Below are positions 4,672 to 44,587 of a stretch of 64,000 nt of DNA, piece after piece. The stretch is from IMG/VR virus record IMGVR_UViG_3300029288_007054, positions 26,446 to 90,445 of that record; one strand, given 5' to 3'. Origin of the DNA: a virus. Its lineage: Duplodnaviria; Caudoviricetes. The notes beneath the pieces were generated by a model. That model was not told the origin of the DNA. It saw only the letters and a list, made by a program, of their open reading frames with translations, and searched no databases. The number at the start of each line of letters is the position of its first letter. The stretch's first letter is position 1. Made by a program: the position numbers and the translations under genes.

Positions 4672-6366
4672 TTATTTTTTTAGAACAATCTCGATTACAT
4701 TAATGGCTGGATAAATAAACGACTGTGGAAACGAGAAGTAAATATCTGCCTTCTGTCCTGATATCTCTGTTCCCAAATCATCTGAAAACATCTTAAACTT
4801 GACATCTGTTCTGACACCATTTTTAGATACATAAAAAGATAATATTTTCCAATCGTCTCTTTCAAAAAGACTAGGCTCAACAATTGTAGCGTCAGAAAGA
4901 AGAAACACTGGCTCCGGGTTATGCTGATTGCAATAGGGATAAAGACTGTTTTTTAGCTTTTCTGCATTTACAAGCGTAACGGATTGAGGTTTTAATTCTA
5001 CATCATAATATTTAATTTCCTCAGGTCTTCCATGAATTTTATAGTAGCTTTCACACGCCTTATTCAGTGCGTCGTTTACGTTATTCAGTGCATGGGGCTT
5101 AATAGTAACACCAGCAGCCAATGCATGGCCACCATAATTTTCAAATACATGTTTACAGCTATCGAGAATTTCTTTTAGGTTGACGTTTTCCAATGACCTT
5201 CCGCTTCCTTTAATGACCTCTCCATTTTTTCCCATTACGATTGCTGGTCTGCAAAATTTTTCTACTAGCCTCGAAGCAACCAGCCCAACTAACCCTATAG
5301 GCCATTCTGGGTTATATATTGCTATAGCATTAGGAAATTTATCTATATTGGCTTCTACTTCTAGCATTGCCTCTTTCTCATATTTTCGCTGTTTCTTTTT
5401 CCTCTCGCTATTATGCTCATTTAAATTCTGAGCCATTAGATCAGATATTTCTGGACTTTGTTCTATCAACAGCTTATAGGCCATATCTGGTTTAGAGAGA
5501 CGACCAACAGCATTTATTCTTGGAGCTATCTTAAATAGAACATCTTCCTGACTTAATGAAGAGTCTCTTATACCCGAATTTCTAATCAAAGCATTAAGCC
5601 CCGATGCGACCACATTATTGAGGCATCCATTCTCTAATCCGTTTTTTACAATAATTCTATTATCTCCAATAATGGGGCTTACATCTGCCAATATTCCAAT
5701 AGCAGCATAACTCAGAAATTCAATTGGATTCACTTTTTTTGTTAGCCATCTAATACCACGAATAAAATGAAAGACTTCTCCACAGGCACATGTATCTTGA
5801 AAATCGCACAAATGCCAGTTGATAAGAACATCTGCAGATTTAGAAATCTTTTCTTTATCTACAATGTGGTGATCTATTATAATAACTTTCTTGATCCCCC
5901 ACTCTTTCAATTCTTTAATCTCTGATTCGTTATTAGATCCGCAATCCGTTATTATAAGCAAGTCGGGAGGTTCTGTAAACATTTTTTTAAAAGATATTAG
6001 TGCCTTATGATTTAAACCATAACCATGTTCTATACGAGAAGGAAGAAACGCTTTACATTCTAGTTGAAAAATATTACAGAGCTGTTTTATCATGGTGGCA
6101 GAGACTATCCCATCTGCGTCAAAATCCCCCATAATAGCGACCTTCTCTTTTTTAAGGGCCGATTGACAAAACATAAGAGCAGCTGCTTCTACACCCTTAA
6201 GATTATATGGATGGGATAAATCGTTATAATTAGAATGTATGAACTTTGATGCGTTCTCTAGTTTAATATTCCTTTGGGAAAGCAAACGTGCCAAAATCGG
6301 TGAATGCCCTTGTTTCAACAATTCTGCTTCTTTGGCTTTGTCATTTAATCTTCTTTTCCACTTCAT
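4672..6366 (-). CDS. recJ: single-stranded DNA exonuclease RecJ (DHH family)
   Basis: GDFDADG, ITDCG, IIDHH and GGHALAAG motifs; start set at MKWKRR. Confidence 0.95.
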   Translation of the reverse strand: MKWKRRLNDKAKEAELLKQGHSPILARLLSQRNIKLENASKFIHSNYNDLSHPYNLKGVEAAALMFCQSALKKEKVAIMGDFDADGIVSATMIKQLCNIFQLECKAFLPSRIEHGYGLNHKALISFKKMFTEPPDLLIITDCGSNNESEIKELKEWGIKKVIIIDHHIVDKEKISKSADVLINWHLCDFQDTCACGEVFHFIRGIRWLTKKVNPIEFLSYAAIGILADVSPIIGDNRIIVKNGLENGCLNNVVASGLNALIRNSGIRDSSLSQEDVLFKIAPRINAVGRLSKPDMAYKLLIEQSPEISDLMAQNLNEHNSERKKKQRKYEKEAMLEVEANIDKFPNAIAIYNPEWPIGLVGLVASRLVEKFCRPAIVMGKNGEVIKGSGRSLENVNLKEILDSCKHVFENYGGHALAAGVTIKPHALNNVNDALNKACESYYKIHGRPEEIKYYDVELKPQSVTLVNAEKLKNSLYPYCNQHNPEPVFLLSDATIVEPSLFERDDWKILSFYVSKNGVRTDVKFKMFSDDLGTEISGQKADIYFSFPQSFIYPAINVIEIVLKK

Positions 6367-6454: not shown

Positions 6455-6763
6455 ATGAATATGAAATACCCAGTAAAGAAAAAGATCAGAAAAGAAATGA
6501 ACAGATCTGGCGTTCAAATATGCCCCATTTGCTTAGAAAATCAGATATTAGTTGAACATCATATAAACGGAAGAGATATTCCAAATGCAAACCACCCTTC
6601 TAATGTAGCCTATATCTGTTGCAATTGTCATAACAAAATTCATCATGGCATTATCATTATTGAAGGATGGTTTACGACCACAAAAGGTAAAGAATTGTTA
6701 TGGCATTATGTTGAAGAATCATCTTTCAGTGGACAAAATGCTCAACCCCATATAATAGGATAA
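6455..6763 (+). CDS. small HNH endonuclease
   Basis: CPIC...EHHING...SNVAYICCNCHNKIH. Confidence 0.8.
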   Translation: MNMKYPVKKKIRKEMNRSGVQICPICLENQILVEHHINGRDIPNANHPSNVAYICCNCHNKIHHGIIIIEGWFTTTKGKELLWHYVEESSFSGQNAQPHIIG

Positions 6764-6767
6764 AGCT

Positions 6768-8624
6768 ATGGCTATCATTCCAGTAGTAAATGCATGTGCT
6801 ACATCACGAGCCAGTGGCCTGTCTTTAGACTTAAGCGAACTTTACCAATTTGCACCTTTTAATAGTTTTGACCCCTCGAAAGATTTATTTGGTCCACAAG
6901 AAAACAATCAGTGGAAATCAAAATTTACACCAGTACTTCCAGAGCATCCCATCAGACTTAACGCAGATCTGGGTGCTGAATATGACATAGCTTATATACG
7001 CTATGTCAACTCTCATGATAGGGGAGGAGAAACAATCTGGGGTATTAATCATTTAAGAGTATATGGCGCAAAAGATACCTCAGAAGGATTAACGGCATAT
7101 AACGAGGTTAGGGCATCTTTCTACGCTGGTTTAACCTTGCTCACAAATGGAACTGTAACTTTAGATAAACACGTTGACCTTAAAGATAACGCCAATGCTG
7201 ATTTGTTAAACACCTTTATTACTCTGTCATTGCCGAATCATGGATTATATAGATACTATATTTTTGAGATAGATGATGCATTCTATAGTCCTCCAATGTG
7301 GATGGGCATAAGACGAATCGAACTGATAAATGAATCGTCATCATCTTCCTCGTCAAGCATTAGCTCTTCATCAAATAGCTCTTCGGAAAGCTCAAGTTCT
7401 TCAGAAAGTAGTTCTAGCTCAAAAAGCGATTCTAGCAAAAGTTCAAGTTCATCGGAAAGCTCAAGCAGCTCAAGCAATAGCTCCTCTGAATCTAGTTCTT
7501 CATCTGTATCCTCAAGCTCTAGTAGCTTCTCAAGCTCAAGTTCTTCCGAAAGCTCAAGTTCTTCTGAAAGCTCAAGCTCAGAAAGCGATAACCCAAGTTC
7601 AAGTTCTTCTGAAAGTTCAAGTTCTTCTAGCTCTTCTGAAAGTTCAAGTTCTTCTAGCACATTTATTAGAAGCTCTTCATCTTCCAGTTCTTCGTCTTCC
7701 AGTTCTTCAAGTACATTTATTAGAAGCTCTTCGTCTTCAAGTGGTTCTCCCGGCTTTACATTTACTATTGCTACAACATCAAGTCCTCAAACATTTACCT
7801 TACCGCTAATAAATACTGGTAGTTTTAACTGTACTGTAGACTGGGGTGATAATTCTACTTCTACAATTACGGCATGGGATGATGCCGCTAAAGTGCATTC
7901 ATATGCTAATGCTGGAACATATACAGTAATAATAAATGGTGCTTGCGGTGGATTTGCATTTAATAATGGTGGAGATAAAACATTAATAAATACCGTTATT
8001 TCTTGGGGAAGAAATTGTAACTTTAATACGTTAAATTTTTATGGATGTAGTAATTTGACTACTTTACCTAGTGGGGATGAAGAACAAGGTAGACTAAGTA
8101 CTGTAACAACATTCTTAAATTGTTTTTATAATTGTTTAAAATTAACCTCAATACCATCGGGCTTATTTAATGATAATACTACCGCAACTAATTTTGCTAA
8201 TTGTTTTGTGAATTGCTGGCCACTAACCTCAATACCGTCAGACTTATTTAATGATAATACTACTGCAACTAATTTCTCCTATTGTTTTTATTATTGTACT
8301 TCTTTAAAAGCAATACCTTCCGGTTTATTTGATAATAATATTAGCGTAACTAATTTTACTGGTTGTTTTGCTGAAATTGGCAATCCGCTGGTTTCTTTAG
8401 CTCCTGAATTATGGACAAGAACTGGACCTACCCCAACTGGAACAGATTGTTTTGCAAATGACACTAAATTGGCAAATTATGACTCTATACCAGAAAGTTG
8501 GGGTGGACCTTTGGTTAGCAGCTCAAGTTCTTCTAATAGTTCCTCAAGTAGTTCTGAAAGCTCAAGTAGCTCTAATAGTTCTAATAGTTCAAGTTCTTCA
8601 AGTAGTAGTTCGCATCCTATATAA
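6768..8624 (+). CDS. Ser-rich modular surface/virion protein with BspA/DUF285-like LRR domain
   Basis: Globular N-domain, ~140-aa poly-Ser linker, VDWGD PKD-like segment, 27-aa LTSIPSGLFNDNTTATNF..CF repeats, poly-Ser tail. Confidence 0.75.
   Translation: MAIIPVVNACATSRASGLSLDLSELYQFAPFNSFDPSKDLFGPQENNQWKSKFTPVLPEHPIRLNADLGAEYDIAYIRYVNSHDRGGETIWGINHLRVYGAKDTSEGLTAYNEVRASFYAGLTLLTNGTVTLDKHVDLKDNANADLLNTFITLSLPNHGLYRYYIFEIDDAFYSPPMWMGIRRIELINESSSSSSSSISSSSNSSSESSSSSESSSSSKSDSSKSSSSSESSSSSSNSSSESSSSSVSSSSSSFSSSSSSESSSSSESSSSESDNPSSSSSESSSSSSSSESSSSSSTFIRSSSSSSSSSSSSSSTFIRSSSSSSGSPGFTFTIATTSSPQTFTLPLINTGSFNCTVDWGDNSTSTITAWDDAAKVHSYANAGTYTVIINGACGGFAFNNGGDKTLINTVISWGRNCNFNTLNFYGCSNLTTLPSGDEEQGRLSTVTTFLNCFYNCLKLTSIPSGLFNDNTTATNFANCFVNCWPLTSIPSDLFNDNTTATNFSYCFYYCTSLKAIPSGLFDNNISVTNFTGCFAEIGNPLVSLAPELWTRTGPTPTGTDCFANDTKLANYDSIPESWGGPLVSSSSSSNSSSSSSESSSSSNSSNSSSSSSSSSHPI
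7370..7745 (+). repeat. low-complexity Ser-coding repeats
   Basis: Recurrent GAAAG(C/T)TCAAG units; ACATTTATTAGAAGCTCTTC at 7659-7678 and 7713-7732. Confidence 0.85.
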
Positions 8625-8639
8625 ATAAGGAGGTATATT

Positions 8640-9344
8640 ATGTGGTTTAGTAAATACAAAAAAACAGATTTTAGCGGGGGCGATTTGCATAAAGATCCAG
8701 AACCACTAATGGAAAGTAGGGCTTTCTATGCATCTCCTCAATTTGTAGCTCCTAGAAGAATGGACTCAAGGGATATGTGCTTACGATCCTCTAATCAAGG
8801 ACAAACACCTCACTGCGCTGGCTATTCAACAGCCGGATTTATTGAAGTTTTTAATTGGCGCACAAAACATTACCCTGAACAATGCGATGGCGATCTAATA
8901 TACACAGAAGCAAAAAAATTAGATGGTATGCCCCAAGTTAACGGAACAATATTAAGATGCGCAGGACAGGGCGCTATAAATGCGGGTTTGATTAAGGGTG
9001 TAGTAAAACAGGTGCCTAAAACAGAAATGGATATACAATTTGCAATACATACTTACGGTGTGTGCGTAGCTGGGTTTATGATCACCGACGAGTGGAATTT
9101 AGTGGAGAAAACTACGGGAAAAATTAGTAACTTTGGAGATAAAGCAAGGATAATTGGCGGACATGCTTTGCTTTTAGCAGGATATTCTGACGAAGGAATC
9201 TACATACAAAACTCTTGGGGAGAGGAATGGGGTATTTATGGTTTCGGCATACTCTCATGGGAACAGTTTAATAAGCAAATAATGGATGCAATGGTCATAG
9301 TCCCCGAAGTATGGACACCGGAAAATTCAGTTAGAGCTGCGTAA
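8640..9344 (+). CDS. papain-like (C1A) cysteine peptidase
   Basis: NQGQTPHCAGYS (Q, C), GGHALLLAGY (H), QNSWGEEWG (N). Confidence 0.9.
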   Translation: MWFSKYKKTDFSGGDLHKDPEPLMESRAFYASPQFVAPRRMDSRDMCLRSSNQGQTPHCAGYSTAGFIEVFNWRTKHYPEQCDGDLIYTEAKKLDGMPQVNGTILRCAGQGAINAGLIKGVVKQVPKTEMDIQFAIHTYGVCVAGFMITDEWNLVEKTTGKISNFGDKARIIGGHALLLAGYSDEGIYIQNSWGEEWGIYGFGILSWEQFNKQIMDAMVIVPEVWTPENSVRAA

Positions 9345-10229
9345 TTTAAGTTTGCCCCATCTTCTTAAATTGTGGTCATCTCTAATGCCATTTTTGATTA
9401 AACATCTACTAACTGATGTTTGTCCACAACTTAATTTCTTAGCAATATCAATCTGTTTAAAACCTTTTTTATGCAGAGCCAAAATATCCCGACGCATTTT
9501 AGCCCATTTCTCTTTATTTTCTTGAACTCTATTTGGTTCAAGTTTACGCAACCTAAATACAACAGATGCACTATTATATCCAAGTTTTTTAGCTATTTGA
9601 ACGGAATTAAGTTTTTTCTTTCTTAATTTGATAATCTTCTTTATATCTAATTTTTGAACACCATTATAGTTAGCAACCTTAAAATCAATTTTATCCTTCA
9701 GCTTCTTAAATTTCTCCACGTCTATTTGTTCCGTAATGTGACAATTTTTACACAAAACGTCACATTTCTTAATTTCATCAAGAAGCTTTTGAGGTATTTT
9801 CAGAAAAACCCTTTTAGAATGATAAGATCTATATATATTTAATTGTTTATCCTTTCTATCTCTATGATGAAACTCTAAACTAACAGCACTTTTGCCCTTA
9901 TACCCACATCTACTACAACTATCCTGACCCTTTATTTTTAGCAACATTTCTTTATTGGGATTGCTTATAGGATAATGCTCTTCCATATGACAGTTTGCAC
10001 ATAAAAGAATACATTTTTTAACTTCTTTCAGTGCTACATCCCAGTGTTTATTAATCATTGAGTTAATTATGTCTTCTTTATCTTTCGTATGATGAAATGC
10101 CAAGACAAAGACATTATCATTTCCACACTTTTCGCATTTGCCTCCAAGCAAGTTTGTAGCCTTTATCTTCTTCGCCCATCTTCTAATAAAACTATCTTTT
10201 CTATCTTGGGCGTTAGACCTTTTCTTCAC
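9327..10229 (-). CDS. tandem-HNH homing endonuclease-like protein with C-terminal HTH repeats
   Basis: Two CxxC...FHH...C.LLC.NCH modules; IAKKL/SQ.SV HTH-like repeats. Confidence 0.85.
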   Translation of the reverse strand: MKKRSNAQDRKDSFIRRWAKKIKATNLLGGKCEKCGNDNVFVLAFHHTKDKEDIINSMINKHWDVALKEVKKCILLCANCHMEEHYPISNPNKEMLLKIKGQDSCSRCGYKGKSAVSLEFHHRDRKDKQLNIYRSYHSKRVFLKIPQKLLDEIKKCDVLCKNCHITEQIDVEKFKKLKDKIDFKVANYNGVQKLDIKKIIKLRKKKLNSVQIAKKLGYNSASVVFRLRKLEPNRVQENKEKWAKMRRDILALHKKGFKQIDIAKKLSCGQTSVSRCLIKNGIRDDHNLRRWGKLKLRSSN

Positions 10230-10390
10230 TTTACTACCTCCCCTAAAATACCCCTTAAAAGGTCTTCTATGTGTTCGGGTAGGGTTTGGTCTAGCTCTTC
10301 CTTTATAATCAATTGTGCGTCAAGGTGATGCATTCTTAAGTTTTCTATCATGGCTTTAGCTTCCTGCGTTATATTGACTTCTACTAACAT
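10226..10390 (-). CDS. 54-aa leader ORF translationally coupled to the HNH gene (MLVEVNITQEAK...)
   Basis: Manual translation; GGGAG SD; GTGA overlap with the HNH start. Confidence 0.65.
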   Translation of the reverse strand: MLVEVNITQEAKAMIENLRMHHLDAQLIIKEELDQTLPEHIEDLLRGILGEVVK

Positions 10391-10545
10391 GGCGGTTCAC
10401 TCCCTAGAAAAAGCAGACCCCTTAGCATTATTACTATCTGATGAACCGCCAAGCCCGACAGGTAGTTACTAAAGGGTCTACTTATTATTCTATTTTAATT
10501 TACTAATACTAACAGACTTTGGCGATTCATCTGTATATATTATAC
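10388..10545 (-). promoter_or_regulatory. structured cis-regulatory leader (long hairpin plus alternative pseudoknots) with TGTATAAT promoter
   Basis: Stem 10412-10425/10469-10482; loop segment 10441-10452 complementary to both 10389-10400 and 10519-10530; -10 at 10539-10544. Confidence 0.7.
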
Positions 10546-10557
10546 AAGAAAAATCAC

Positions 10558-11301
10558 CTAAAATCCTTTAATTATTTTAATTAAATCTGTTACCATTATC
10601 GAGATTTTAGTCTGTTGTTCTGATGCTGGTAATTCCTCTACTGCATAGGCAAGTTGAGTTAATCGCTCCAGCAACATATCCCTGTAAGTCCTTGCCATAT
10701 CAGCTAAGGCATTCTCTGTAGTTATTGACCCATCAGGATTGATGCAAATCTTTTTATTTGGGGCACCCAGTATATCTTCAAGTTCCGCAATGGTTACTTG
10801 ATTTCTAGCTGACTTCTCCACCTTTGGCTGTTGGGGTTGCCTTAAAACCCATTCTGAAAAATCCTCACAAGGTAAATCAAAATCGCAATCATCTTCTGTT
10901 TCTCCATCTTTAATTCTTGCGCAACTCTCGCAACTTCTCTCTTTTGGCTGTCGGGGTTGCCAGTATTGGCATGGTGAATGTATGTGGTCAGTTGCAGGAA
11001 TACAACCATTATGATTCTTTCCGCAACTCTCGCAACTTCTCTCCGCCTTTGGCATTGCAGGGGTGAACTTGGTGCAGCAACAAAATCCAGTAGGTTCTCG
11101 ACATTCTTGTTTACGAAAGTGATTGCCTTCTGTATGTCCACACTCGCACACTTCACTTTCTGCGGAGGGGGCGAGTACCCACAACAACGCCTGTTTTCTA
11201 ACCTCAAGGAAAAGTCTTACTGCATCTGGATTCTTATGTGAATCGCCAAACAGTTCTTCAATCTCTTTTAACTCTGCCATTATCTCATTCTCTGCCTTCA
11301 T
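10558..11301 (-). CDS. Cys-rich hypothetical protein with duplicated ERSCESC module
   Basis: 22-nt direct repeat at 10920-10941 and 11022-11043; many CxxC/CxC motifs. Confidence 0.65.
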   Translation of the reverse strand: MKAENEIMAELKEIEELFGDSHKNPDAVRLFLEVRKQALLWVLAPSAESEVCECGHTEGNHFRKQECREPTGFCCCTKFTPAMPKAERSCESCGKNHNGCIPATDHIHSPCQYWQPRQPKERSCESCARIKDGETEDDCDFDLPCEDFSEWVLRQPQQPKVEKSARNQVTIAELEDILGAPNKKICINPDGSITTENALADMARTYRDMLLERLTQLAYAVEELPASEQQTKISIMVTDLIKIIKGF

Positions 11302-43493: not shown

Positions 43494-44456
43494 TTAAGAG
43501 AACATATTGTTTCTGATTAATTGATAATCATTTTTAGTCAATTTATAATTAATAAATTTAAAATTAGCATGCAAAACATCATGAACATACCTTCTTTTTT
43601 TTACGATATTCCTAAGATAACTGATATAGTTTATTTTTGATTTCTTATGAAAACCAGTTACCTCTACATAGGTATTATCTAGTGGAAAGTAAAAGTCATA
43701 GCGACAATAACCAATTCCGGGGCCATATCTTTGATCATGAATAAAAAATTTTCTTTCATTTTTAAATTTTAAATACCAATAAGCTTCAACTTTAGAAGAA
43801 CAAAGGGTGCCATCCCTTAGCACTATTTTTTTACATTTAGGACAACTATTGCCGTTAATTCGACTATAAACCGCTGCCTGCCATTCATAATCACATTTTG
43901 AACATTTCCACCACATCTTTTGATGAGAACTATAGGGAACCTCGCATGCACCTATCTGATTTTTAAACAAGTGAAATTCTTTAGCTAAATCAGGGTATTT
44001 TGTTTGAAGAGAATTACACTTGGGACAATTGCCATGCCCCAGAAGTCTATTATAAATTGATGCAGACCATTCATAAGAACAAATGGAGCATCTCCACCAA
44101 TATTTATTAATAGAATGACCTACTTCGATAGGATCGATTTTGTTCTTATCGTAGCTCCATTCTTTTAACAGCTCTGGACGTTGTGATACGAAAGATTGAC
44201 AATAGGGACAATTAGCGCTATTTTTTATATTTCTAAGTCTAGATTTAATGCCATTTTTTAATGTTTTAATATATCTAAATCCGATTTGAGCCATCCATTC
44301 AAAACCACACTTAGAGCATCTCCACCATACTTTTTTTCTACAATTTATTGCAACATCGTTGGGAGTTAAGGTATTCTTATTTTGATTCCACTCTTGGGTC
44401 AACAACGGCGAGTTAAGAGAAAGTCTATTTTTATCTGTTATGACATTAGATCCCAT
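43494..44456 (-). CDS. zinc-ribbon-repeat protein with C-terminal PD-(D/E)XK-like nuclease (homing endonuclease-like)
   Basis: Three WW.CS.C..EW.A...CP.C repeats, then RYDFYFP..NTYVEVTG. Confidence 0.75.
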   Translation of the reverse strand: MGSNVITDKNRLSLNSPLLTQEWNQNKNTLTPNDVAINCRKKVWWRCSKCGFEWMAQIGFRYIKTLKNGIKSRLRNIKNSANCPYCQSFVSQRPELLKEWSYDKNKIDPIEVGHSINKYWWRCSICSYEWSASIYNRLLGHGNCPKCNSLQTKYPDLAKEFHLFKNQIGACEVPYSSHQKMWWKCSKCDYEWQAAVYSRINGNSCPKCKKIVLRDGTLCSSKVEAYWYLKFKNERKFFIHDQRYGPGIGYCRYDFYFPLDNTYVEVTGFHKKSKINYISYLRNIVKKRRYVHDVLHANFKFINYKLTKNDYQLIRNNMFS

Positions 44457-44587
44457 ATCTCACTTTTAGACAACAAACCCTTAAACGACTATAAGTTAGA
44501 TTCATTGCCATGAGATCTAGTTAGGAAATCGAATAAGGGTCTGTCTTAATATTTTTTACTAAATCTCATGGCATATATATTATACCA
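44457..44587 (-). promoter_or_regulatory. pseudoknotted 5' leader with extended -10 promoter
   Basis: TGG-TATAAT at 44579-44587; helix 44506-44520/44559-44573; crossing helix 44474-44483/44534-44543. Confidence 0.65.

What the first reader, a model, noticed from the sequence alone, without database searches (positions are those of the whole stretch)
10388..10545. Apparent bistable RNA switch controlling a leader ORF coupled to an HNH nuclease
Seen on the minus strand: promoter TGTATAAT (10539-10546), then a long hairpin (14-bp stem 10412-10425/10469-10482 plus inner stem 10433-10440/10459-10466). Its loop segment TTGGCGGTTCAT (10441-10452) is complementary to two mutually exclusive partners. 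One is the 5' ATGAATCGCCAA (10519-10530; 12 bp, one G-U). The other is GTGAACCGCCAT (10389-10400; 11 bp), which lies between the GGGAG SD and the AUG. The controlled 54-aa ORF overlaps (GTGA) the start of the tandem-HNH gene. Inference: a riboswitch- or attenuator-like on/off pseudoknot for a toxic nuclease; ligand or trigger unknown.
Basis: partly seen in the sequence, partly recalled or inferred. Interest (0 to 1): 0.8.

Follow-up and report, generated by a model that had tools for sequence, protein, structure and literature searches.

The report
RNA relay switch guarding homing-endonuclease cassettes
A conserved 355-base module in a large phage genome carries a promoter and a folded RNA leader, and it probably lets a small protein and the selfish DNA-cutting enzyme behind it be made only from the module's own transcripts.

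Summary
On the minus strand, TGTATAAT (10546-10539) is followed by a 5'-terminal segment el1 (10531-10519). Next comes a 71-nt hairpin with a U tract (10482-10408) whose loop holds the complement el2 (10452-10440). A second copy, el3 (10400-10389), lies between the SD and the AUG of a 54-aa ORF that overlaps a double-HNH gene.

I found a fourth element, el0 (10558-10552), upstream of the -10 box. It pairs with el1, so the promoter sits inside a hairpin.

The module spans window 10577-10226. It recurs once more in this genome and in 12 further distinct metagenomic loci, with 8 different "key" words. All the elements present change together. The downstream gene varies: HNH, GIY-YIG, a DUF4379 zinc-finger protein, or a Hint-like protein. 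No Rfam family matches.

Best reading (0.5): a ligand-free relay. Transcripts from the module's own promoter lack el0, so el1 captures el2 and the ribosome site stays free. Read-through transcripts fold el0:el1, terminate, and mask the ribosome site through el2:el3. This extends the T4 promoter-in-hairpin control and the hok tac/ucb logic. A ligand-binding riboswitch is not supported.

First-stage notes on the neighbouring window of this genome had already flagged the duplicated cassette.

The parts
10226..10577 (-). The whole conserved module: upstream motif, promoter hairpin, leader, terminator hairpin and 54-aa ORF.
   Evidence: blastn against the other loci shows homology starting at 10577-10583 and ending at 10221-10236. 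Flanking sequence and the nuclease gene are unrelated between loci.
10508..10572 (-). Promoter-enclosing hairpin H0. It can form only on transcripts started upstream. Its 5' arm contains el0 (GGTGATT, 10558-10552), its 3' arm contains el1, and the -10 box lies in the loop.
   Evidence: strand folding gives -23.5 kcal/mol, z -5.9. The equivalent hairpin is predicted in all 8 copies tested, at -13.5 to -23.5 kcal/mol. The sum of matched el0:el1 energies beats 5000/5000 permutations.
10539..10546 (-). Promoter TGTATAAT (a -10 box with TG directly upstream). It is part of the palindrome TGTATAATATATACA (10546-10532). The predicted start is near A10532.
   Evidence: TGTATAAT is identical in 10 of the 11 distinct copies that include the promoter; L014 has TGTATTAT. 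The genome has 26 TGTATAAT on the coding strand against 2 on the other. Eight such sites lie 6-8 nt before an ATG that opens a long ORF. No -35 box is present, and the start site is not mapped.
10519..10531 (-). el1, the 5'-terminal 'activator' segment GATGAATCGCCAA. Its pairing with the el2 region extends to about 10508.
   Evidence: The 11-bp core is paired in 109/110 cells across 10 copies, with changes on both sides at 7 positions.
10495..10530 (-). Short upstream ORF (11 codons plus stop) that starts at the AUG inside el1.
   Evidence: Its length varies from 0 to about 60 codons between copies (own reading of the sequences), so it is not a conserved feature.
10408..10482 (-). Long hairpin T: outer stem 10482-10469/10425-10412 and inner stem 10466-10459/10440-10433, followed by the U tract 10412-10408. 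It looks like an intrinsic terminator.
   Evidence: -35.0 kcal/mol on the sense strand against -20.2 on the antisense strand. A hairpin plus U tract is present in every copy, with different stem sequences.
10440..10452 (-). el2, the loop segment TTGGCGGTTCATC, complementary to both el1 and el3 (the 'sequestor').
10400..10404 (-). Shine-Dalgarno GGGAG of the 54-aa ORF.
   Evidence: A purine-rich SD sits at the same place in all copies.
10389..10400 (-). el3, GTGAACCGCCAT. It covers the SD-AUG spacer and the first bases of the AUG (10390-10388).
   Evidence: the count of structure pairs for el2:el3: 86.7% of cells paired against 34-54% when slid; 8 of 15 pairs change on both sides; covariation score 0.478, reached by 0/500 shuffles.
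10226..10390 (-). 54-aa ORF encoding an acidic, helical small protein. Its 3' end carries the SD for the next gene and its stop overlaps that gene's start (GTGA).
   Evidence: Homologues were found down to about 33% identity. pI is 4.1-5.7 in 18 of 19 members, with one at 6.56. AlphaFold2 gives a two-helix model at pLDDT 63-67. No Pfam or PDB sequence match.
9327..10229 (-). Double-HNH endonuclease gene with a C-terminal HTH-like region: a free-standing homing-endonuclease type.
   Evidence: PHROGs HNH families at E 9e-31 with two stretches; Pfam HNH and HTH_23 hits are weak.

Best explanation
This is a ligand-free, four-segment RNA relay built into a portable expression module for selfish nuclease genes. 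The segments alternate in type: el0 and el2 are complementary to el1 and el3.

On transcripts that start at the module's own promoter, el0 is absent. The 5'-terminal el1 pairs with el2 as soon as el2 is made. This (a) holds the inside of the terminator hairpin open and so lowers termination, and (b) leaves el3, that is the SD-AUG region, free. The 54-aa ORF is then translated, and through the overlapping stop/start so is the nuclease.

On transcripts that read in from upstream genes, el0 pairs with el1 in a hairpin that encloses the -10 box. The terminator hairpin then folds with el2 exposed in its loop, and most transcripts end there. Any that escape have el2 paired with el3, which masks the ribosome site.

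Shown here: the four elements, their co-variation, the hairpin plus U tract, the gene overlap and the module boundaries. Inferred: the start site, the effect on termination, the effect on translation, and which state each transcript class adopts.
For: 1. Architecture and spacing are kept. The TGTATAAT-to-ATG distance is 148-160 nt in the 11 distinct copies with a complete leader (WIN, PAR, L003, L004, L005, L006, L009, L011, L014, L017, L019). The key word differs between copies, with 8 variants in all; the d-type is known only from the 5'-truncated L007.
2. el2:el3 is 86.7% paired, 8/15 pairs change on both sides, and 0/500 shuffles reach the covariation score.
3. The el1:el2 core is paired in 109/110 cells, with changes on both sides at 7 of 11 positions.
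4. Matched duplex energies are -16 to -32 kcal/mol for el1:el2 and -18 to -32 for el2:el3. Mismatched combinations average about -14 to -16. Matched sums beat 5000/5000 permutations for all three helices, including el0:el1 at -106.5 against -74.2 +/- 7.1.
5. The helices contain 131 G-U pairs. The sense strand folds much better than the antisense strand (T: -35.0 against -20.2), so the structure acts as sense RNA.
6. In growing-transcript folds, own-promoter transcripts have el1:el2 as the minimum-energy structure when el2 emerges, in 10/10 copies. Read-through transcripts reaching the U tract have el0:el1 plus the T hairpin in 10/10, though in L011 only 3 of 8 el1 core positions pair with el0.
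7. el1:el2 and el2:el3 are nearly equal in energy within each copy.
8. The promoter looks real: strong strand bias, and leaderless genes in the same genome.
9. There is precedent. T4 I-TevI, I-TevII, I-TevIII and segB, and Aeh1 mobE, have an RBS hairpin that forms only on upstream-initiated transcripts, with a late promoter placed inside it (PMC2988022, section 12). In hok mRNA the 5' tac element traps the anti-SD ucb and frees the mok SD (PMC9841398).
Against: Nested folding puts the terminator hairpin below el1:el2 in energy once its 3' arm is made, in 8/10 copies. Relief of termination would therefore have to be kinetic. el1:el2 also leaves the outer stem free, so termination may not be affected at all.

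el0:el1 (-8 to -14 kcal/mol as a duplex) is much weaker than el1:el2. At the stage when el2 emerges, read-through transcripts already prefer el1:el2 in 7/10 copies.

el2:el3 together with the hairpin is a pseudoknot. Its linker is only just long enough in the window copy (own estimate), and no pseudoknot-capable folding was available.

In L019 no gene is called for 1.3 kb upstream.
Confidence: 0.5

Rival explanations
1. A regulated attenuator or riboregulator with an external trigger. All transcripts carry the alternatives el1:el2 and el2:el3 (plus the terminator), and a factor tips the balance. Candidates are a protein (possibly the 54-aa product or the nuclease), an RNase cut in the long hairpin, temperature or a small molecule.
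For: The two pairings are nearly equal in energy, and the minimum-energy fold of own-promoter transcripts flips between states across copies. The hairpin is long enough to be an RNase III-type substrate (own knowledge). I-TevI represses its own promoter (PMC2988022, section 10). The promoter is palindromic.
Against: No nucleotides outside the helices are conserved, which a ligand pocket or a sequence-specific protein site would require. No Rfam match. The reading does not explain why el0, which lies outside the own-promoter transcript, changes together with el1. The small protein is acidic, which fits poorly with binding nucleic acid.
Confidence: 0.2
2. A ribosome-driven relay. Ribosomes finishing the upstream gene, or translating the short ORF that starts at the 5'-terminal AUG inside el1, melt H0 or the terminator. 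This decides whether el1 is free, whether the terminator forms, and whether el3 is exposed. It would be a coupling or attenuation device like the trp or pyrBI leaders.
For: In the window copy the upstream ORF's stop codon (10560-10558) touches el0, and in most loci it lies within 25 nt of el0. This phage uses leaderless AUGs at TGTATAAT promoters. In the b, c and f key types the AUG in el1 opens a frame that runs through the whole hairpin (own reading). In L007, which lacks el1, a 366-aa ORF reads through the hairpin.
Against: The upstream ORF in the leader is not conserved: 11 codons here, 7 in L009 and none in L011. Its peptide sequence is not conserved either. L019 has no called gene for 1.3 kb upstream.
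Confidence: 0.15
3. The promoter-to-terminator unit is mainly a gene for a small RNA of about 125 nt. Its loop el2 acts in trans as an antisense repressor on el3 of longer mRNAs, or el1 acts as an activator. The different key words keep cassettes in one genome from cross-reacting.
For: A promoter followed about 125 nt later by a terminator, with a recognition sequence in a stable loop, is the usual anatomy of antisense RNAs (own knowledge). The two cassettes in this genome have non-cross-reacting keys: -10 to -11 kcal/mol against -26 to -30 for matched pairs.
Against: Within such an RNA, el1 and el2 would pair with each other and hide both. The unit is always directly joined to the ORF it would target, so action in cis is simpler. 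No separate copy of the unit exists without the ORF in the genome or the loci.
Confidence: 0.1
4. The repeats act at the DNA level, as protein operators, recombination sites or insertion scars, and are not an RNA structure.
For: There are direct and inverted copies of one word around a promoter, and the promoter is palindromic.
Against: The word differs between copies while complementarity is kept. G-U pairs are tolerated only on the sense strand, and the antisense strand folds 10-15 kcal/mol worse. A conserved protein could not follow eight different words.
Confidence: 0.03

Closest known systems
Translational control of T-even phage homing-endonuclease genes (I-TevI, I-TevII, I-TevIII, segB, Aeh1 mobE): an RBS hairpin with a late promoter inside (PMC2988022, section 12)
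   Same: Both concern a selfish nuclease gene in a phage. An RNA structure hides the ribosome site on transcripts that come from upstream. The cassette's own promoter is placed so that its transcripts lack part of the inhibitory structure.
   Different: In T4 the promoter sits inside the very hairpin that hides the RBS, so there are two segments. Here the promoter sits inside a hairpin that hides an activator segment, and the signal passes through four segments. A terminator hairpin carries the sequestor in its loop. A conserved small ORF lies between the leader and the nuclease. No sequence or Rfam relation was found.
hok/Sok mRNA folding (tac, fbi, ucb, mok SD) (PMC9841398)
   Same: A 5'-terminal activator element (tac, like el1) has alternative partners. 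When it traps the anti-SD (ucb, like el2), the SD of a leader ORF (mok, like the 54-aa ORF) is freed, and that ORF is translationally coupled to a harmful gene.
   Different: In hok, tac is held by the 3' end (fbi) and released by 3' processing; here it is held by a 5' element that is present only on read-through RNA. No antisense RNA gene was seen on the other strand: the only scan run, a sigma-70-type -35/-10 pattern scan, found none, and that scan also misses this module's own promoter. The hok toxin is a membrane peptide, not a nuclease.
Four-segment leader attenuators (trp-type 1:2, 2:3, 3:4) and terminator/antiterminator riboswitch expression platforms
   Same: A chain of mutually exclusive helices ends in a hairpin plus U tract upstream of the controlled ORF.
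   Different: There is no conserved leader peptide with sensing codons and no conserved aptamer. The competing helix invades the loop and inner stem of the terminator, not its 5' arm at the base. The last pairing masks the ribosome site as a loop-to-tail pseudoknot.
IS10/Tn10 'fold-back inhibition' of transposase translation on transcripts from outside the element
   Same: A mobile element shields its harmful gene from outside transcription by an RNA pairing that needs sequence upstream of its own promoter.
   Different: In IS10 the pairing is a direct two-segment pairing, with no relay and no terminator.

Membership tests
Riboswitch (ligand-binding aptamer plus expression platform) | Match to a described aptamer class | tested here: not met
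   Rfam 15 gives nothing in the region at gathering score. In the permissive scan the best hits are 12-25 bits, far below their thresholds, and unrelated.
Riboswitch (ligand-binding aptamer plus expression platform) | Conserved unpaired nucleotides forming a binding pocket | tested here: not met
   In the 11-sequence alignment the invariant columns lie in the promoter, helix cores, U tract and SD. The linkers differ completely between key types.
Riboswitch (ligand-binding aptamer plus expression platform) | Ligand-dependent change of structure | not testable with these tools
   Needs in-line or SHAPE probing.
T4-type promoter-in-hairpin control of homing-endonuclease translation | Ribosome site sequestered by a conserved RNA pairing | tested here: met
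   el2:el3 covers the SD-AUG spacer and the AUG. It is 86.7% paired, and 8/15 pairs change on both sides.
T4-type promoter-in-hairpin control of homing-endonuclease translation | The cassette promoter lies inside an RNA structure that is complete only on upstream-initiated transcripts | tested here: met
   H0 encloses the -10 box in all 8 copies folded, with z -1.8 to -6.6. However, it sequesters the activator el1, not the RBS itself, so the match is to a modified form.
T4-type promoter-in-hairpin control of homing-endonuclease translation | Differential translation of the two transcript classes during infection | not testable with these tools
hok/Sok-like type I toxin-antitoxin mRNA | 5' activator element with alternative partners that frees the SD of a coupled leader ORF | tested here: met
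   el1, el2 and el3 with co-variation. Overlapping stop/start (GTGA, ATGA or TAATG) in most copies; L004, L009, L017 and L019 have other junctions.
hok/Sok-like type I toxin-antitoxin mRNA | Cis-encoded antisense RNA gene | tested here: not met
   No promoter-like site on the opposite strand of the leader. This was a consensus scan only.
hok/Sok-like type I toxin-antitoxin mRNA | 3'-end fold-back element and 3' processing | not tested
   The 3' end of the transcript is unknown.
Intrinsic-terminator attenuator | GC-rich hairpin directly followed by a U tract, upstream of the regulated ORF | tested here: met
   Present in every copy, at -23 to -36 kcal/mol with 4-6 U. The simple terminator scan misses it because the loop exceeds 8 nt.
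Intrinsic-terminator attenuator | An alternative helix that excludes the terminator | tested here: inconclusive
   el1:el2 consumes the loop and the 5' side of the inner stem but not the outer stem. It is the minimum-energy fold before the 3' arm is made (10/10), but not after (2/10).
Ribbon-helix-helix repressor or antitoxin (for the 54-aa product) | N-terminal beta strand and basic DNA-binding face; match to RHH families | tested here: not met
   No Pfam or PDB sequence hit. The model has two helices and no strand, but confidence is low. The N-terminus is not conserved in distant relatives. The family is acidic.

The most novel reading that the evidence does not exclude
A previously undescribed class of portable RNA 'lock'. 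It is a self-contained, ligand-free, four-segment relay with an embedded promoter and terminator that travels with a small acidic protein. It serves as a common 5' expression module for unrelated homing-endonuclease families. Its short 'key' words diversify by compensatory change, so that several cassettes can sit in one genome without cross-talk. In effect it would be a natural counterpart of engineered orthogonal riboregulators.
Probability: 0.35. Interest if true: 0.8.

Novelty: new variant of a known kind. Interest (0 to 1): 0.7.

Why it matters
Homing endonucleases must be expressed enough to spread without harming the phage that carries them. How free-standing ones are controlled outside the T4 group is largely unknown.

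This module would show a general, transferable solution: one 355-bp unit that insulates any nuclease gene from surrounding transcription at two levels, termination and ribosome access. It is a clean natural example of a multi-state RNA whose logic can be read from co-variation alone, with eight interchangeable address words. That makes it directly testable by swap and compensatory mutations, and of interest as a source of orthogonal RNA parts.

It also defines a new structured-RNA family and a new small-protein family (about 55 aa, acidic, motif LRxNHID...IQEELxQxLP) for annotating large phage genomes.

Tried and rejected
- Rfam at gathering and permissive thresholds found no family.
- blastn of the region against GenBank phages found no match.
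- An exact 8-mer word/complement/word scan of the 90-kb record found only the second cassette. The window copy escapes it because el1 and el3 differ by a T/C.
- A scan of all 58 promoter-like sites for 5'-end-to-downstream pairing found no hidden extra copies. It found only the unrelated element at 44587.
- MAFFT misplaces L014 and shifts el1 by one column between key types. I therefore counted el1:el2 on a hand-anchored alignment. I did not build a covariance model.
- The RHH idea for the small protein, raised in earlier notes and by my own first look, was not supported.
- The ESM Atlas gave no usable hit.
- The leaderless upstream ORF as the core of the mechanism was rejected because it is not conserved.
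- A DNA-level reading was rejected on strand-specific G-U pairs.
- Group I intron and HEARO/omega-RNA readings were considered and dropped, because Rfam found neither.

Full report
**Setting.** The window is bases 26446-90445 of a 90,445-bp IMG/VR record classed as a provirus, about 48% complete and 36% G+C. It carries phage-type replication genes (RecJ, NAD-dependent ligase), a tmRNA and a tRNA. Nearly all genes lie on the minus strand.

On the minus strand the order is:
- TGTATAAT at 10546-10539;
- GATGAATCGCCAA at 10531-10519 (el1);
- an AT-rich spacer;
- a long hairpin with outer stem 10482-10469/10425-10412 and inner stem 10466-10459/10440-10433 (7 bp plus a C-A mismatch);
- an 18-nt loop holding TTGGCGGTTCATC at 10452-10440 (el2);
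- TTTTT at 10412-10408;
- GGGAG at 10404-10400;
- GTGAACCGCCAT at 10400-10389 (el3);
- the ATG at 10390.

The repeat finder recovers the three inverted repeats independently. The 54-aa ORF (10390-10226) overlaps the GTG of a 300-aa protein with two HNH stretches and a C-terminal HTH-like region.

The hairpin plus U tract has the anatomy of an intrinsic terminator. A fourth element also exists.

**A second copy in the same genome.** A search of the record with the leader hit only the promoter part of a second site. Reading that site shows the same layout with a different word:
- TGTATAATATATAC;
- ATGAAGTTACCACA;
- a hairpin GCACAAGTCC...GGGCTTGTGC followed by T6, with the loop GTGTGGTAACTTCT;
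- GGAGAAGTTACCACAATG;
- a 53-aa ORF 64% identical to the window's;
- a GIY-YIG endonuclease in place of HNH.

**More copies elsewhere.** Profile searches with the small protein found relatives only in metagenomes and MAGs, one of them labelled Atribacterota. I fetched 12 further distinct loci; two more fetched loci duplicate these (L013 matches L005 and L018 matches L017).

Every locus that reaches far enough upstream has the same architecture, including those whose protein is only 33-41% identical. The distance from TGTATAAT to the ATG is 148-160 nt.

Eight key words occur:
- GAAYCGCCA (a);
- GAAGTTACCA (b);
- GAAGTCACCA (c);
- GAAGTCGCCA (d);
- GGAATCGCCA (e);
- GAAACGACCAA (f);
- GAARTCGCTA (g);
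- AAGCCGCCA (h).

The gene behind the small ORF is HNH, GIY-YIG, a four-fold DUF4379 treble-clef zinc-finger protein, or a Hint-like protein. In most copies its start overlaps the small ORF's stop (GTGA, ATGA or TAATG); the junction differs in L004, L009, L017 and L019.

blastn places the module's edges at window 10577 and about 10225, with unrelated sequence on both sides. So this is a discrete 355-bp unit that has recombined with different nuclease genes and sits at different places in related phage backbones. In L004, for example, it lies between RecJ and the ligase.

**Co-variation.**
- el2:el3, counted on the MAFFT alignment: 86.7% of cells pair, against 34-54% when the partner is slid by 1-3 columns. 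Eight of 15 pairs change on both sides. The covariation score is 0.478, against 0.06-0.18 slid, and 0/500 shuffles reach it.
- el1:el2, counted on a hand-anchored alignment because MAFFT shifts el1 by one column between key types: 109 of 110 cells of the 11-bp core pair, with changes on both sides at seven positions.
- Matched duplex energies are -16 to -32 kcal/mol for el1:el2 and -18 to -32 for el2:el3. Mismatched combinations average -14 to -16.
- The correct assignment gives a lower energy sum than any of 5000 permutations.
- The helices include 131 G-U pairs. The sense strand folds 10-15 kcal/mol better than the antisense strand, so the structure is selected in the sense RNA, not in DNA.
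- Among 58 promoter-like sites in the genome and loci, only the module copies combine a strong 5'-end-to-downstream pairing with a strong second pairing. They score -16.5 or lower for both, against medians near -9.

**The fourth element.** Just upstream of the -10 box lies GGTGATT (10558-10552). It is complementary, with one G-U, to AATCGCC in el1.
- The same holds in each copy with its own word: GGTAACTT/AAGTTACC, GGTGATTTC/GAAGTCACC, ATTCTTTC/GAAAGAAT, GGCGATTTC/GAAATCGCT and TTGGTGGCTTTC/GAAAAAGCCGCCAA.
- The resulting hairpin (window 10572-10508) scores -23.5 kcal/mol with z -5.9. The range over 8 copies is -13.5 to -23.5 with z -1.8 to -6.6.
- The -10 box sits in its loop.
- Matched el0:el1 energies sum to -106.5, against -74.2 +/- 7.1 for permuted partners.
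- el0 can only be present on RNA that starts upstream of the module's promoter.

**The promoter.**
- TGTATAAT is identical in 10 of the 11 distinct copies that include the promoter; L014 has TGTATTAT.
- In the genome TGTATAAT occurs 26 times on the coding strand and twice on the other.
- Eight such sites are followed 6-8 nt later by an ATG that opens a long ORF. RecJ at 6366 is one example, which points to leaderless mRNAs and a start about 7 nt after the hexamer.
- That places el1 at the very 5' end of the module's own transcript.

**Folding of growing transcripts (nested model only).**
- Own-promoter RNA: when el2 has just emerged, el1:el2 is the minimum-energy structure in 10 of 10 copies.
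- Own-promoter RNA: once the hairpin's 3' arm exists, the hairpin is lower in energy in 8 of 10.
- Read-through RNA: at the U tract, el0:el1 plus the hairpin is the minimum in 10 of 10, partial in L011.
- Read-through RNA: when el2 first emerges, el1:el2 is already preferred in 7 of 10.
- Full-length own-promoter RNA flips between el1:el2, the hairpin and el2:el3 from copy to copy. This is expected for nearly equal-energy states.

**Mechanism proposed.** The facts fit a relay.
- Own-promoter transcripts lack el0, so el1 traps el2 early. The inside of the terminator hairpin is held open, which would give a kinetic loss of termination; this is inferred. el3 stays single-stranded, so the small ORF and the coupled nuclease are made.
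- Read-through transcripts sequester el1 in the promoter hairpin. The terminator folds with el2 in its loop, and escaped transcripts are silenced by el2:el3.
- This is the logic known for T4 homing-endonuclease genes (PMC2988022, section 12), lengthened by two segments. The el1/el2/el3 part works like tac/ucb/mok-SD in hok mRNA (PMC9841398).
- I give this reading 0.5.

**What weakens it.**
- No RNA data could be obtained.
- el0:el1 is much weaker than el1:el2.
- el1:el2 leaves the outer terminator stem untouched.
- The el2:el3-plus-hairpin state is a pseudoknot that I could not model.

**Rivals.**
- An external trigger such as a protein, an RNase or a ligand (0.2). It is weak on conserved unpaired bases and does not explain el0.
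- Ribosome-driven melting from the upstream gene or from the leader ORF that begins at the AUG in el1 (0.15). The leader ORF ranges from 0 to about 60 codons, so it is not conserved.
- A trans-acting small RNA (0.1).
- DNA-level sites (0.03).

**The small protein.** It is under coding constraint. Among differing codon pairs, changes are 416/136/455 at codon positions 1/2/3, and 329 differing codon pairs are synonymous against 423 that are not.

The wider family, about 20 representatives at 50% clustering, shares the motif LRxNHID...IQEELxQxLP..IEDI. It is acidic and modelled as a low-confidence helical hairpin. It matches no Pfam, PDB-sequence or Atlas entry.

An RHH repressor role, suggested in earlier notes, is not supported. 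Its function is open. A small acidic protein made just before a nuclease could be a partner or inhibitor, but that is speculation.

**Verdict.** This is a real, conserved, previously uncatalogued structured leader. Its logic is a new variant of known kinds, and it is attached to a portable module for selfish nuclease genes.

Noticed in passing
whole record; e.g. window 6366 (-), 22141 (+), 43466 (-), 60376 (-): Many genes appear to be leaderless. Eight of 38 TGTATAAT/TGnTATAAT sites are followed 6-8 nt later by an ATG that opens an ORF of 60-564 aa, including RecJ. TGTATAAT is 13-fold more frequent on the coding strand.
   Followed up: partly
window 44457-44587 (-), upstream of ORF 43494-44456: A second kind of structured leader. 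TGGTATAAT is followed by a 15-bp 5'-terminal helix, and its loop (CAGACCCTTA) pairs with TAAGGGTTTG about 17 nt before the ATG of a DUF4379 zinc-finger nuclease-like gene. There is no small ORF and no U tract. An earlier first-stage note had also flagged it.
   Followed up: partly
window 10563-10577 (-) and the same place in all loci: A module-specific motif, AAATAAWWARAGGAWT, lies about 10 nt upstream of el0. It is absent from the genome's other TGTATAAT promoters. In some copies it forms the base of the promoter hairpin. It could also be a factor site or the left recombination edge of the module.
   Followed up: partly
L007:940-1241: A natural variant lacking the promoter, el0 and el1. The 3' end of a 366-aa ORF of unknown family reads through the hairpin and el3 into the small ORF. 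The hairpin, el2 and el3 are intact, with their own key word.
   Followed up: partly
window 6455-9344 (+): A plus-strand block sits inside an otherwise minus-strand region, convergent with the HNH gene. It holds a 102-aa HNH-like protein, a 618-aa protein of unknown function and a 234-aa papain-like peptidase.
   Followed up: no
window 10382-10389 and 10507-10514: The direct repeat between el1 and el3 continues after a gap: TGTTAGTA follows both, on the minus strand. The start of the small ORF therefore imitates the 3' extension of el1.
   Followed up: no
L005:3254-4312: In one locus the gene behind the module is a 352-aa protein with only weak Hint/intein-like hits. The module therefore also serves non-classical selfish genes.
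   Followed up: no
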